DNA of 64,000 nucleotides. It comes from a virus. The position numbers and the translations under genes were made by a program. Of this stretch, positions 50,841 through 54,545 are shown piece by piece (the stretch's first letter is position 1; each line of letters opens with the position of its first letter). The stretch is from the IMG/VR virus record IMGVR_UViG_3300042898_000786, positions 1-64,000 of that record; one strand, given 5' to 3'. The notes under the pieces are model-generated. The model saw only the letters and a list, made by a program, of their open reading frames with translations. It was not told where the DNA came from and ran no database searches.

Positions 50841-51324
50841 CTTCTGATTCTTTTATGGTGATAAACGCAGACTTGAGGTCTTCGCCTAGATTAATTATTT
50901 GACGTTCTATGATTGTGAAATCAATAAGTTTGTTTAGCGTTGAGTCATCATTCGCCTCCTTAAACTTTACTGCACTCCGCAAAAAGACAGCATAAGATGC
51001 TAGCAAAGAGCGCATACTTGTATCTTCGATGCTATCTGCAAATTTAGCAAGCATTTGAGGCTTTGAGTCTTTCTTCGGCTTTCTACCTCGGATATGCTTT
51101 AGGTCGTGGTCGGCCACATACCAACCGCATCCTTCTCTTATAGTAATACCCTCGTTGTTACCTTTGTGCCCATTCACATCCTCGTCAAACTCAATGAGAA
51201 ACGATGTCTCTGATTCGGCAAAGACTATCGTTGCTTGTTTGCCGATTGCCTCGGGCGCACTTGGTGCGCTTGTCGCACTTCTAGGATTATAGACCACGCG
51301 GTCTCCAGTTTTAAATGTTTTCAT
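50827..51324 (-). CDS. early protein with SH3/KOW-like N-terminus
   Basis: MKTFKTGDRV...IEFDE...GH..G..GWYV; leader ACAAATAGAAATT. Confidence 0.6.
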   Translation of the reverse strand: MKTFKTGDRVVYNPRSATSAPSAPEAIGKQATIVFAESETSFLIEFDEDVNGHKGNNEGITIREGCGWYVADHDLKHIRGRKPKKDSKPQMLAKFADSIEDTSMRSLLASYAVFLRSAVKFKEANDDSTLNKLIDFTIIERQIINLGEDLKSAFITIKESEDGNQ

Positions 51325-51337
51325 AATTTCTATTTGT

Positions 51338-51562
51338 TTATAATTGGTGTTCGGTAATGTATAGTCGGATGGTTTGGTAGTCATCTACCTCAACAAAGTA
51401 TTCGGACTCTTCATCGCAGTATACTTGTTTGATTTCGTGCCTTTCATTTATTGACTTCTTAGTTGAGTCAAAGAAGTACTGCGCTGCACTTTTTGCGCCA
51501 AAGGCTTCGTGGTCATTAAGGTCGAGGTCGGAATGAGTCTCGTGAAGGATGTAGAATTTCAT
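51338..51562 (-). CDS. early hypothetical protein
   Basis: ORF with A-rich leader. Confidence 0.6.
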   Translation of the reverse strand: MKFYILHETHSDLDLNDHEAFGAKSAAQYFFDSTKKSINERHEIKQVYCDEESEYFVEVDDYQTIRLYITEHQL

Positions 51563-51581
51563 AGTTGTTATTGTTTATTAG

Positions 51582-51998
51582 TTATTGAATCGTGAACCAA
51601 TCTTCGTCCATATTGAACTCATCGATTTGTGCTTGACTAACGAACGCTTCGCAGTACCACGAATCGCCTCCGTCACTATTGCTAGTTAGGTCTGCCGATA
51701 CGTTACTACCTAGCAAGGTTTCCCACTCACGGGTGAAGTCGTTAAGGTCTTCCTCAGTTCCGACAAAGTATGTCCACACTCGAAGTTCATTTGCTTCTTC
51801 GTGGCCTCCCTCCATCACTACTATATTGCCTAACTCTAGCACTTTCTTGAGTTCTTCCTCACTAGTAATTAGCGCCTCATTCAGTTCATCATTAAGTTCA
51901 AATAGTGGTACACTATTGGTTGCCCATAGAGCCAAGGCTAGGTCGGTTACGTTTACGAATGTGAATCCGTCTTCAGTTTTAATTATTCGATTTTCCAT
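51582..51998 (-). CDS. early acidic protein
   Basis: ORF with leader ACAAATAGAAACT. Confidence 0.65.
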   Translation of the reverse strand: MENRIIKTEDGFTFVNVTDLALALWATNSVPLFELNDELNEALITSEEELKKVLELGNIVVMEGGHEEANELRVWTYFVGTEEDLNDFTREWETLLGSNVSADLTSNSDGGDSWYCEAFVSQAQIDEFNMDEDWFTIQ

Positions 51999-52017
51999 AG
52001 TTTCTATTTGTTATTGA

Positions 52018-52227
52018 TTAAAGTTCTAAAACTGCTAGTGAAAGGTTGCCCTCTCGGTCAAACCATCCCTCCTTGATTAAGGCGGTGGCAGTTCGGCCAT
52101 AGTGGCCTTGAAGTTCCCAAGCCAAGCCACTACGGACTAGTTCGGCAAAGAGGCACACGACTTCTTGGTCGTTGAGTGCGCCTTGTTCGTATGCGATGAT
52201 GTTCGCGATTTGTGATGTGTTGTTCAT
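52018..52227 (-). CDS. conserved early phage protein
   Basis: IIAYEQG...LF.ELV.SGLAW.LQGHYGRTA. Confidence 0.75.
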   Translation of the reverse strand: MNNTSQIANIIAYEQGALNDQEVVCLFAELVRSGLAWELQGHYGRTATALIKEGWFDREGNLSLAVLEL

Positions 52228-52242
52228 ACTGATTATCTATTT

Positions 52243-52294
52243 GGTTAAGATGCCTCACGGCATTTCGGCTAATGTCAAGCCTCTTCAGTTAACC
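52243..52294 (-). ncRNA. type I hammerhead ribozyme (AUC site)
   Basis: GGUUAA CUGAAGA GGCU-UGACAUU-AGCC GAAA UGCC-GUGA-GGCA UC^ UUAACC. Confidence 0.9.
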
Positions 52295-52471
52295 TTTGTT
52301 TTGCTCCACAAACTTTTCTAAAATGTCGAGAAGTTCGTCACCACATTTGTCTAACCTATCTTGAAGTTCGGGCGAAAGGTCGCTTGACTCAAGGTTGAAT
52401 TCCTCGCACACTGAGTCGAACAGCAAATCAATTTGAGAGGTAAGGATTCCGTAGATATTTTCGTTTTTCAT
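52289..52471 (-). CDS. small acidic protein flanked by hammerheads
   Basis: 60 aa; stop TAA lies in stem I of the downstream ribozyme. Confidence 0.7.
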   Translation of the reverse strand: MKNENIYGILTSQIDLLFDSVCEEFNLESSDLSPELQDRLDKCGDELLDILEKFVEQNKG

Positions 52472-52486
52472 AATTTCTATTTGTTT

Positions 52487-52537
52487 GGTTAAGACCTACC
52501 GAAGTAGGTTTCGGGCATTAGCCCTCATCAGTTAACC
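52487..52537 (-). ncRNA. type I hammerhead ribozyme (GUC site)
   Basis: GGUUAA CUGAUGA GGGC-UAAU-GCCC GAAA CCUAC-UUCG-GUAGG UC^ UUAACC. Confidence 0.92.
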
Positions 52538-52716
52538 TGCCACTCAGTAAGCGTAGTCCAACCGAATGCCGTCACGATACCGCGCCTCTGAAGTTGTTCT
52601 AGAACTTTGTACTCTTTAGTGGTATCTGCACCCAAGACAGACTCTACGCTATAAAAGGGTATGTCGGTTGCGATGCCGTCAACATACTCGCGGAAAAAGA
52701 AATTGTAAGTGTTCAT
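52528..52716 (-). CDS. early hypothetical protein
   Basis: Stop TGA is the UGA of the ribozyme CUGA core. Confidence 0.6.
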   Translation of the reverse strand: MNTYNFFFREYVDGIATDIPFYSVESVLGADTTKEYKVLEQLQRRGIVTAFGWTTLTEWQVN

Positions 52717-52745
52717 ATTGTTTGGATTTAGTTATTGAATTGTGT

Positions 52746-53102
52746 TTAGTTTTGGTCTCTATGGATTACGTTCACCAACTGAATGGCGGCATTGTCACCG
52801 ATAAATTCACGGGCAGTGAGGTATGCCTCTGTGCGGCTCACTCGCAGTCCTCCTAAGAGGAAGTCGAATAGTGTGCCGTTCGTACTTTCTACGCTACGTA
52901 CAAATACCGACTGATTGGTCAGTAATTTCATTAGCGACTTCACTAATTCAGCCTTGGTGTCGAACGCTTTTCGGGCGCTCCCTTGGCGAAGATTACCGAC
53001 TTGTAGGAGTTTAGTGGTCTCTGCCTTGTCGGTGTAACGAATCAAGAATTCTACTTCGCGAGTTGTCTTTTTGCTTTGTAGTCTAACTTTGAACTCTCCC
53101 AT
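52746..53102 (-). CDS. first early protein
   Basis: Start refined to MGEFKV after A-rich leader. Confidence 0.6.
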   Translation of the reverse strand: MGEFKVRLQSKKTTREVEFLIRYTDKAETTKLLQVGNLRQGSARKAFDTKAELVKSLMKLLTNQSVFVRSVESTNGTLFDFLLGGLRVSRTEAYLTAREFIGDNAAIQLVNVIHRDQN

Positions 53103-53136
53103 TTTGATTTGATTTTTGAATTGATAAAAGAAAATT

Positions 53137-53186
53137 TGAGAGGGCGTTTGGTCTCGAACCAACGGCAACTAAATTGCTACGCCCCC
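53137..53186 (-). ncRNA. anticodon-less tRNA-like element
   Basis: GGGGGCG UA GCAA-UUUAG-UUGC C GUUGG-UUCGAGA-CCAAA CGCCCUC UCA. Confidence 0.65.
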
Positions 53187-53189
53187 AAT

Positions 53190-53590
53190 TGAACATCAAC
53201 TTAGGGGTACCTTATCGTGTCGTTATGTGCAGTGATGCCGTGGTTCCACCGCAACGAGGTTGTCAGTCCTAAGAAGCACTAAGGAGCAGATGAGCATCGT
53301 TGTATCCGTGTAGCATATGTTCTAAGAACTCATACGACCAAGGTCGCTCCGCTACACATCAACAAACCCGAACTCCATCACCACTCAGTAGCCGTACGTA
53401 CATCAAAGTGCCGTGCGGTCATCTACCTAGTCGTGCGGAACTCCGCTCGCTTAGTGGTCACTATGGTTATGGGTTCAAGCCCCAAGGCACGCTTTTCGCT
53501 TACCATCTTCCTCGGCCCGCCTTACGGCTTCGTCCTCGAGGTGACCTCAACTCGTTTCCCTATTTGGGCGCAGTCGGTCGGTGACACTGC
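53190..53590 (-). ncRNA. putative large structured leader RNA
   Basis: GC-richer than flanks, many nested hairpins, no credible ORF, directly downstream of promoter. Confidence 0.55.
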
Positions 53591-53622
53591 AATACTACAA
53601 CAATCTAGATACGTTTGTCAAG
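53590..53622 (-). promoter_or_regulatory. early promoter
   Basis: TTGACA ... TAGTATTG on minus strand. Confidence 0.55.
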
Positions 53623-54545
53623 TGTTGTTCAAAAAATAATTGTAAGTTGCTGAGAATCAGCGAGAAAAATTTCCACTCTGAATTATAATGTGTCTCTTAC
53701 GCGTGTCATATTAATATACTAGCACCTGAGAACATAAGCCTAGCCTAGCAAGCACGTGCCGCTCTAGTATGCATTGAGCGTAGTGGGGGGAAGTGGGTTG
53801 AAGTGGGAGTAAGTGAGAGTGCTTAGGGGTAAGGTGTGGGGATTGTTGGAGGGTTCTGAGGTACTCGAACCATAACCCAAAACTAGTTGGCGGTAGGGTA
53901 GGAGCGGAGCCTACAACGGAGCCAATTAACATAATATATATTATAGGATGCTTTTGGACACCGATTGCAACTCCGATACTAGAGCGAGGTAGGTCAAGGA
54001 TAGTAGCACGTCCTAGTATGGCTACCAAAAGGCTAAAACATTGCAAGTGAATCATTTAACACGGAGGGGCATACGTTCAGCATTCCGTTTCGGTTCTTGG
54101 CTTGTAACGCTATTATAGTACGATAATCCCCACGGTACGTATAACTCAAACCAGAAATGCGATAACCGCATCCCGGAAGATTGCGTAATTCTGTTCAACA
54201 CATATGCTTGTCCTTTGCAATGTGAACAGATTCTTATGTTATTTCTCGGAAGCGCATAGTTGCGCCTTTGCAAACGTAGTAAAAGTTAGAGCCTTGTTTG
54301 CAGTATCCGAATCAAGCTTTGGCCGGCTCCTTTTGCGCGGGGCGGTTTGGCCGCCCGCTTTTTCCGCCGTCTTAAGCGTTCTATTCGTTTTCGGTATTAG
54401 AAGCTTGCAGTCTATTAAGAGGAAGCTCTGCTTTAGCGAAGTTATAGTTAAAAATCGACATTAGCAAGTTTTTTACACACACTTATAATAGTCGTTATCA
54501 ATTAGTTGACTAATAACCTACTAATTTAGTATGTGTTTATTCTGC

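What the first reader, a model, noticed from the sequence alone, without database searches (positions are those of the whole stretch)
52249..52492. Ribozyme-flanked ORF could be excised and self-circularised as a 244-nt mRNA
Seen: both ribozymes have identical stem I halves. Double cleavage releases 52492-52249 (244 nt), which begins UUAACC and ends GGUUAA-core-AUC and contains the complete 60-aa acidic ORF with its leader. The fragment's own 5' end can therefore rebuild the full second hammerhead. Established: hammerhead products (5'-OH and 2',3'-cyclic phosphate) can be religated by the reverse reaction or by RtcB, as in viroid-like and retrozyme circles. Inference: a phage-encoded circular mRNA, or a mobile ribozyme-ORF cassette.
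Basis: inference. Interest (0 to 1): 0.85.

Follow-up and report, generated by a model that had tools for sequence, protein, structure and literature searches.

The report
Two hammerhead ribozymes bracketing a phage gene
Two genuine self-cutting hammerhead RNA motifs sit in the gaps on either side of a small gene in an uncultured lake phage, an arrangement already described for phages that most likely chops the early messenger RNA into single-gene pieces; nothing I found shows that the piece becomes a circle.

Summary
Two canonical type I hammerheads lie on the minus strand at 52537-52487 and 52294-52243. They share a 6-bp stem I, and double cleavage would release exactly 52492-52249 (244 nt) carrying a real, conserved 60-aa acidic ORF.

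The circular-mRNA reading is not supported:
- GGUUAA/UUAACC is the commonest stem I of a large phage hammerhead family, found in more than 120 IMG/VR contigs.
- In the wider family stem I varies and covaries within each ribozyme.
- Neighbouring ribozymes are fully compatible in only about half of adjacent pairs (46% in two other stem-I classes, 83% in the GGUUAA class).
- ORF60 homologues in ten other loci have both hammerheads in one locus only. The others have one, a more distant one, or none.
- Four lake metatranscriptomes gave no back-junction, but they also did not cover the region.

Family-wide, the upstream stop codon falls at or within about 12 nt before the ribozyme's 5' edge, and the next start codon lies 18-29 nt after the cut. 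The best reading is therefore intercistronic mRNA processing, as proposed for clustered phage hammerheads by Perreault et al. 2011, who looked for circles and found none. This scan has reported tandem phage hammerheads on other genomes before. It is a new member of a known kind.

The parts
52487..52538 (-). HH1, a type I hammerhead. It comprises the conserved A at 52538, the stem I 5' strand 52537-52532, the core CUGAUGA 52531-52525, the stem II hairpin 52524-52513, GAAA 52512-52509, the stem III hairpin 52508-52495, UC 52494-52493 (cut after 52493), and the stem I 3' strand 52492-52487.
   Evidence: Model R1 scores it 65.3 bits. Rfam HH9 gives 18.6 bits, E 0.64.
52243..52295 (-). HH2, a type I hammerhead. 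It comprises the conserved A at 52295, the stem I 5' strand 52294-52289 (which contains the UAA stop of ORF60), the core CUGAAGA 52288-52282, stem II 52281-52267, GAAA 52266-52263, stem III 52262-52251, UC 52250-52249 (cut after 52249), and the stem I 3' strand 52248-52243.
   Evidence: Model R1 scores it 63.5 bits. Near-identical copies occur at the same kind of junction in L079, L010 and L235.
52249..52492 (-). The predicted 244-nt double-cleavage product: a 21-nt leader, ORF60, and the body of HH2.
52289..52471 (-). ORF60, a 60-aa acidic protein of unknown function. It is real and conserved: 24 homologue clusters at 70-90% identity.
   Evidence: No Pfam or PHROG family matches.
52528..52716 (-). 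ORF62, the upstream gene. Its UGA stop is the UGA of the CUGAUGA core of HH1.
   Evidence: 42% homologues in L008 and L033, each followed by a hammerhead.
52018..52227 (-). ORF69, the downstream gene (DUF7417 / phrog_3908). It starts 21 nt after the HH2 cut.
   Evidence: (E about 1e-23).

Best explanation
HH1 and HH2 are active self-cleaving type I hammerheads of a large phage family, and they occupy intercistronic gaps of a long minus-strand block of small (presumably early) genes. As the polycistronic transcript is made, each ribozyme folds and cuts.

The upstream piece keeps the ribozyme body as its 3' end: two stable hairpins ending in a 2',3'-cyclic phosphate with only a 2-nt overhang. 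The downstream piece starts with 5'-OH-UUAACCAAA, an unstructured A-rich leader of about 21 nt in front of the next start codon.

The result is single-gene mRNAs (ORF60 alone, 244 nt) whose stability and translation are uncoupled from their neighbours. The identical stem I of the two ribozymes reflects shared descent within a lineage in which GGUUAA/UUAACC is the usual stem I. It is not a device for circularisation, and any circle or cistron-skipping re-ligation would be a minor by-product.

Shown here: motif integrity, family covariation, placement relative to stop and start codons, and variable presence in relatives. Inferred: cleavage in vivo, end protection, and the effect on translation.
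For: - Both cores are perfect, and all three helices covary across 67 family members; 13 of 15 pairs show compensatory changes.
- The architecture is conserved beyond the search patterns. Stem I is exactly 6 bp and is flanked by A at -7 (131/133), A at +7 (131/133) and A at +8 (112/133). Stem II is 4 bp with a U..A loop. This is typical of a tertiary-stabilised natural hammerhead.
- In 148 unique copies, 141 have an upstream ORF of at least 40 codons. In most of these (about 120) the stop lies between -12 and +1 of the core. 143 have a downstream ORF, and its ATG lies mostly 18-29 nt after the cut.
- The hammerheads lie on the coding strand. Promoter-like sites sit at 53709-53592, and there is no minus-strand terminator-like site down to 51500.
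- Arrays of 2 to 9 copies, each bracketing one or two small ORFs, are common in IMG/VR phages.
- ORF60 homologues work with two, one or no adjacent hammerheads, as expected for an optional processing element.
- Perreault et al. 2011 (PMC3088659) described such clusters in prophages, showed cleavage of all members in vitro and of one triple arrangement in vivo, and proposed processing into single-gene mRNAs.
Against: - There is no direct RNA evidence for cleavage in this phage. The four metatranscriptome contig sets did not cover 52273-53215, and contigs cannot show RNA ends.
- Stem I of GGUUAA-class neighbours stays identical in 83% of pairs, while stems II and III have diverged almost to the level of unrelated copies (4.4 against 3.7 of 8 positions identical). 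Simple descent explains this only if stem I evolves more slowly, and I have not shown why it would.
- The benefit of cutting (stability, translation) is inferred by analogy.
Confidence: 0.62

Rival explanations
1. Circular or re-ligated RNA. After double cleavage, the 5' UUAACC of the 244-nt piece pairs with the GGUUAA of HH2. The reverse hammerhead reaction, or host RtcB, then closes it into a circular ORF60 mRNA. Alternatively, the HH1 5' product is joined to the HH2 3' product, skipping ORF60. On this view the shared stem I is kept for that purpose.
For: - The two stem I sequences are identical, while stems II and III differ.
- The end-to-end stem has a predicted pairing probability of about 0.74 in the linear 244-mer, and the constrained fold lies within 0.5 kcal/mol of the MFE.
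- In the GGUUAA class, 43/52 adjacent pairs are fully compatible, although only 5 of the 41 adjacent pairs with identical stem I (pooled over the GGUUAA-selected and stem-I-free sets) look like recent duplicates.
- Hammerhead ligation and RtcB closure are established for viroid-like RNAs and retrozymes (PMC7761336, PMC7229834).
Against: - Neighbour compatibility is only 29/63, 45/97 and 7/12 in other samples. Clear mismatches next to the core occur at short spacing, for example L146 (GAUAAU then GAUAUA, 328 nt apart) and L154, L269 and L305. Each ribozyme's own two strands always covary.
- 38% of GGUUAA copies are solitary.
- ORF60 is bracketed by two hammerheads in only 1 of 10 other loci.
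- The circle keeps the HH2 fold at MFE level (-42.5 against -42.8 kcal/mol), so it would re-cleave. There is no rod-like fold that hides the ribozyme.
- The stop codon of ORF60 lies in stem I, so terminating ribosomes would unwind the stem that holds the ends together.
- The phage encodes no RtcB or Rnl-type ligase.
- Perreault et al. 2011 looked for circular or spliced products of clustered phage hammerheads and detected none.
Confidence: 0.1
2. DNA-level gene-cassette joint. The hammerhead with its fixed flanks also marks the points where small early genes are swapped by recombination between co-infecting relatives. Crossovers inside the conserved core would separate the two strands of stem I but leave the stem II and III hairpins intact. 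That would favour one common stem I within a recombining population.
For: - Homology blocks with relatives end at ribozyme edges. L244 matches the window only over 52492-52215, starting at the first base after the HH1 cut although L244 has no hammerhead there. L235 and L248 match 52538-52295. The X15 RNA-library contig matches 51992-52247 and then diverges.
- Genes up- and downstream of ORF60 differ between close relatives.
- The HH1 stem III hairpin occurs with at least four different stem II hairpins.
- An X17 contig shares only the 3' half of HH2, 52241-52272.
Against: - Breakpoints at gene boundaries are expected in any mosaic phage region, with or without a ribozyme.
- The shared stretches are short (6-13 bp).
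- Heterogeneous stem I arrays are common.
- The perfect catalytic cores and stem covariation show selection on RNA function, so this can only be an added role.
Confidence: 0.18
3. The ribozymes act mainly as translation elements. Cleavage creates a 5'-OH end about 21 nt upstream of the start codon, and this end is what lets ribosomes load on Shine-Dalgarno-less leaders.
For: - The distance from cut to ATG is narrow, 18-29 nt in most of 143 cases.
- The leaders are A-rich with no Shine-Dalgarno sequence.
- The few hits in bacterial genomes are mostly in Bacteroidota: Paraflavitalea, Niabella and Pedobacter.
- Self-cleavage of type I hammerheads in 5' UTRs of fungal RNA viruses is required for translation initiation (PMC13725137).
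Against: - The same leader motif (AACAAAUAGAAAyUAUG) serves hammerhead-free junctions in this operon and in L235. ORF60 homologues lack an upstream hammerhead in most loci.
- The precedent is eukaryotic and cap-independent.
Confidence: 0.1

Closest known systems
Clustered hammerhead ribozymes flanking single genes or short gene blocks in prophages and phages (Perreault et al. 2011, PLoS Comput Biol, PMC3088659)
   Same: - Several canonical hammerheads lie close together on the coding strand in phage intergenic gaps and bracket individual genes of varying identity.
- That paper proposed processing into single-gene mRNAs. It explicitly considered circular or spliced products and did not detect them.
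   Different: - The copies here belong to a compact type I subfamily: stem I of exactly 6 bp flanked by A and AA, and a 4-bp stem II.
- Rfam models do not call this subfamily at gathering score.
- The host is an uncultured lake phage, not a prophage of a cultured bacterium.
Viroid-like RNAs and retrozymes (hammerhead-bounded circular RNAs; de la Pena et al. 2020, PMC7761336; Cervera and de la Pena 2020, PMC7229834)
   Same: A unit bounded by two hammerheads gives 5'-OH and 2',3'-cyclic phosphate ends that could be ligated.
   Different: - Those units are non-coding and highly structured so that the ribozyme is hidden in the circle. They are repeated or replicated and are detected as circles.
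- Here the unit is a protein-coding cistron, the circle would keep an active HH2 fold, there is no reverse transcriptase, bracketing is not conserved, and no circle has been seen.
Synthetic ribozyme insulators such as RiboJ (from my own knowledge, not checked here)
   Same: Self-cleavage between expression units removes upstream context and leaves a defined 5'-OH leader. This matches the mechanism I propose.
   Different: RiboJ is an engineered element derived from a satellite-RNA hammerhead, and it leaves a hairpin on the downstream RNA. In the type I topology here the ribozyme stays on the upstream RNA.
Type I hammerheads in 5' UTRs and intergenic regions of chrysoviruses and fusariviruses (Lopez-Galiano et al. 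2026, PMC13725137)
   Same: Type I hammerheads with a long helix III sit directly before viral ORFs, sometimes as tandem pairs enclosing 186-399 nt. Cleavage is linked to expression of the downstream ORF.
   Different: Those are RNA genomes of eukaryotic viruses using cap-independent translation. This is a DNA phage with a bacterial translation system.

Membership tests
Hammerhead ribozyme, type I | Conserved catalytic core: C3 U4 G5 A6 N7 G8 A9, G12 A13 A14, A15.1-U16.1, H17 | tested here: met
   Both copies match at every position.
Hammerhead ribozyme, type I | Three helices around the core, with stems II and III closed by loops and stem I open | tested here: met
   Stems are 6, 4 and 6 pairs (HH1) and 6, 4 and 5 pairs (HH2). 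The RNAalifold consensus gives the same topology.
Hammerhead ribozyme, type I | Helices supported by compensatory changes in relatives | tested here: met
   13 of 15 consensus pairs have double changes across 67 sequences, including all 6 pairs of stem I.
Hammerhead ribozyme, type I | Match to a curated Rfam hammerhead model at gathering score | tested here: not met
   No match at gathering score. The best match is HH9, 18.6 bits against 52. This reflects what the models were built from, not a defect of the core.
Hammerhead ribozyme, type I | Self-cleavage at the predicted site | not testable with these tools
   This needs transcription assays or end-specific RNA-seq.
Hammerhead ribozyme, type I | Stem I / loop II tertiary contact for activity at low Mg2+ | tested here: inconclusive
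   The fixed 6-bp stem I, the near-invariant flanking A(-7), A(+7) and A(+8), and the conserved U and A in loop II suggest a contact. No structure or mutational test was done.
Clustered phage/prophage hammerheads (Perreault 2011) | Two or more hammerheads within a few hundred bases, on the gene strand, in intergenic gaps of a phage genome | tested here: met
   The two cut sites are 244 nt apart. The genome is a phage: terminase, virion protein, tail fibre and primase. The pattern recurs in many IMG/VR contigs.
Hammerhead-bounded circular RNA (viroid-like / retrozyme-like) | Circular molecule detected (back-junction, RNase R resistance) | not testable with these tools
   RNA contigs of four runs did not cover the unit and showed no backward joint. 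This is recorded only as tried.
Hammerhead-bounded circular RNA (viroid-like / retrozyme-like) | Bracketing by two compatible ribozymes conserved in relatives | tested here: not met
   Only 1 of 10 other ORF60 loci has both hammerheads. Across the family, 46-83% of adjacent pairs are compatible, depending on stem-I class.
Hammerhead-bounded circular RNA (viroid-like / retrozyme-like) | Stable alternative fold that disfavours the ribozyme in the circle | tested here: not met
   The circular MFE is -42.8 kcal/mol and the HH2-containing fold is -42.5 kcal/mol.

The most novel reading that the evidence does not exclude
In phages whose hammerhead arrays share one stem I, any cleaved 5'-OH end can dock on any ribozyme body. 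Ribozyme-catalysed or RtcB-assisted re-ligation would then make circular single-gene mRNAs or join non-adjacent cistrons, giving an RNA-level shuffling of early gene cassettes.
Probability: 0.08. Interest if true: 0.85.

Novelty: new member of a known kind. Interest (0 to 1): 0.33.

Why it matters
If the ordinary reading holds, this locus adds a clean example to a large phage hammerhead subfamily that Rfam does not call at gathering score. The subfamily follows a stop codon, ribozyme, roughly 22-nt leader, start codon layout. That is useful for annotation and for testing why phages cut their own early mRNAs.

The finding also sets a concrete test for the old, unresolved question of whether clustered phage hammerheads ever ligate. 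GGUUAA-class arrays are the best place to look, because their neighbours stay compatible although the other stems have diverged.

Tried and rejected
- RNA evidence. Six metatranscriptome runs hold small parts of 51000-54000. Four were laid. None covers 52273-53215, and no backward joint or skip joint at the cut sites was listed. All runs are kept as contigs, so RNA ends cannot be read. This says nothing either way.
- Phage GenBank collection. blastn of 51500-53500 found no match.
- Stem I as a family-wide invariant. I held this after and rejected it after the stem-I-free scan, which gave 26 different stem I sequences among 36 copies and GGUUAA in about 5 of 29 loci.
- Neighbour identity as recent duplication. 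This is rejected as the sole cause for the GGUUAA class, because stems II and III of neighbours are hardly more alike than those of unrelated copies.
- UUAACCAAA as a general leader element of this phage. There are 4 matches, and 12 of 100 shuffles reach that number, so it is not significant.
- Target-site-duplication reading of the TTAAC direct repeat. Rejected, because non-palindromic stem I variants have no such repeat.
- Phage-encoded RtcB, Rnl-type ligase or reverse transcriptase: none found.
- Literature searches for phage hammerhead circles after 2011 found nothing relevant.

Full report
**What is there**

On the minus strand of the window two sequences fit the type I hammerhead exactly.
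- HH1 (52537-52487) reads GGUUAA, CUGAUGA, hairpin GGGC-UAAU-GCCC, GAAA, hairpin CCUAC-UUCG-GUAGG, UC, UUAACC.
- HH2 (52294-52243) reads GGUUAA, CUGAAGA, GGCU-UGACAUU-AGCC, GAAA, UGCC-GUGA-GGCA, UC, UUAACC.

Every core position required by Perreault et al. 2011 is present. It holds a 21-nt leader and the 60-aa ORF 52471-52289 (15 acidic and 5 basic residues).

The stop codon of the upstream ORF62 is the UGA inside the HH1 core. The stop codon of ORF60 is the UAA inside the HH2 stem I. Each ribozyme closes all three reading frames.

A pattern for core plus stem I gives two matches against none in 100 shuffles. A structural scan of the whole 75.8-kb genome finds only these two. A covariance model of the family finds nothing else in the window above 11 bits. 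Rfam reports nothing at gathering score and only a weak HH9 match to HH1.

The genome is a tailed phage (terminase, virion protein, tail fibre, primase/helicase, ribonucleotide reductase) from lake water. Promoter-like sites lie upstream at 53709-53592, and no minus-strand terminator-like site separates them from the ribozymes.

**The family**

Positions that the pattern did not fix are nevertheless conserved: A at -7 in 131/133 copies, A at +7 in 131/133, and A at +8 in 112/133.

A second scan left stem I free. It shows the wider family: an A, exactly six pairs, a 4-bp stem II with a U..A loop, a variable stem III, and AA after stem I. It gave 26 different stem I sequences among 36 copies, and GGUUAA in roughly 5 of 29 loci.

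In an alignment of 67 copies all three stems covary; 13 of 15 pairs show compensatory changes. Two other stem-I classes are also common: GUCUAA in 64 contigs and GAUUAA in 117. In bacterial genomes the GGUUAA form is rare, with seven hits that include Paraflavitalea, Niabella and Pedobacter.

**Placement**

In 148 unique copies, 141 have an upstream ORF of at least 40 codons, and in most of these (about 120) the stop codon lies between -12 and +1 of the core. 143 have a downstream ORF, whose ATG lies mostly 18-29 nt after the cut. Median neighbouring ORFs are 90 and 75 codons. The element is therefore a tight module of stop codon, ribozyme, short leader and start codon in arrays of small genes. 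Arrays reach nine copies.

**Does the shared stem I point to circles?**

Three tests speak against that as a selected function.

1. Neighbours are not required to match. Fully compatible adjacent pairs number 43/52 in the GGUUAA-selected set, 7/12 in the stem-I-free set, 29/63 in the GUCUAA set and 45/97 in the GAUUAA set. Some clear mismatches lie next to the cut site at short spacing, for example L146 with GAUAAU then GAUAUA, 328 nt apart. Within every copy the two strands of stem I pair perfectly. Selection is therefore visible on folding in cis and not on docking of a neighbour's end.
2. 28 of 73 GGUUAA copies with at least 2 kb of flank on each side have no neighbour within 2 kb.
3. ORF60 is a real gene with 24 homologue clusters at 70-90% identity, but its ribozyme bracket is not conserved. 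Of ten other loci, only L245 has both hammerheads. L244 (92% identical protein) has only the downstream one. L235 and L248 have only the upstream one. L236, L246 and L247 have the next hammerhead one gene further on. L251 has a hammerhead only about 900 nt upstream, and L249 and L250 have none nearby.

**Physical plausibility**

The linear 244-mer is predicted to pair its 5' UUAACC with the GGUUAA of HH2 with probability about 0.74, so ligation chemistry is conceivable. The circle would keep the HH2 fold at essentially the MFE (-42.5 against -42.8 kcal/mol) and so would re-cleave. The stem that holds the ends together contains the ORF60 stop codon, where terminating ribosomes would open it (inference).

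The phage encodes no RtcB, Rnl-type ligase or reverse transcriptase. Perreault et al. raised the circle and splice ideas for clustered phage hammerheads and reported that they could not detect either product. My literature searches found no later report.

**RNA data**

Four lake metatranscriptome contig sets were laid on 51000-54000. None covers the ribozyme-ORF60 stretch, and no backward joint was listed, so this is no evidence either way.

Two contigs are informative about DNA-level mosaicism. One matches 51992-52247 and then diverges, one to two bases from the HH2 cut site. Another shares only 52241-52272, the 3' half of HH2.

**One feature stays incompletely explained**

In the GGUUAA class, neighbours keep the same stem I although their stems II and III are hardly more alike than those of copies from unrelated contigs (4.4 against 3.7 of 8 positions; only 5 of 41 pairs look like recent duplicates).

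Heterogeneous arrays with stepwise related stems (AUCUAA, GUCUAA, GUAUAA, GUGUAA and GUCAAA in L305) suggest descent by local duplication with slower change in stem I.

Recombination inside the conserved core would also favour a common stem I, because it separates the two strands of stem I but not the hairpins. Homology blocks that begin or end at ribozyme edges fit this: L244 from 52492, and L235 and L248 from 52538 to 52295. So do hairpins found in different combinations, but this is not proven. A low level of trans or circular ligation is not excluded.

**Verdict**

The object is a pair of genuine hammerheads of a known kind of phage arrangement, most likely cutting the early transcript into single-gene mRNAs with a protected 3' end upstream and a defined 5'-OH leader downstream (confidence about 0.6). 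The circular-mRNA reading remains an untested possibility with comparative evidence against it as a conserved function (about 0.1).

This scan has already reported tandem phage hammerheads on other genomes, with the same closest precedent.

Noticed in passing
window 53216-53578 (minus strand): Contigs of 179-342 nt from four different lake metatranscriptome runs (depth 5.7 to 43) lie wholly inside this gene-free stretch upstream of the early operon. It is the best-covered part of 51000-54000 in RNA libraries, which fits an abundant small structured RNA.
   Followed up: no
L269, L287, L305, L421 (IMG/VR loci): These loci carry hammerhead arrays of eight or nine copies at 0.5-2 kb spacing. In L305 the stem I sequences form a stepwise series (AUCUAA, GUCUAA, GUAUAA, GUGUAA, GUCAAA), each with its own compensating 3' strand.
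   Followed up: partly
L122 12-1388: After the cut site of three of the four copies in L122, the product's 5' end TTAGAC is followed by AATCAAGTCTAA. The freed end can therefore fold into its own 6-bp hairpin, which would compete with stem I and block re-ligation.
   Followed up: no
L235 2410-2469; L245 907-964: These hammerhead copies have an extra U between A9 and G10.1 of the core. The other core positions are intact.
   Followed up: no
L244 1960-2010 compared with window 52492-52472: L244 has no hammerhead before its ORF60 homologue, yet keeps TTAACC at the start of the leader. Its homology with the window begins exactly at the first base after the HH1 cut site. This may be a footprint of ribozyme loss or a recombination point.
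   Followed up: partly
P0002, P0005 (ORF60 homologues, 77 aa): These homologues have a 17-residue N-terminal extension that repeats the MKNxxxYGI start of the protein. This suggests a recombination event within the start of the cassette, or a miscalled start.
   Followed up: no
window 52017-51996; L235 2660-2685: The leader motif AACAAAUA(A/G)...GAAACUAUG recurs at junctions with and without a hammerhead. The ribozyme therefore looks like an optional insert into a generic stop-start joint.
   Followed up: partly
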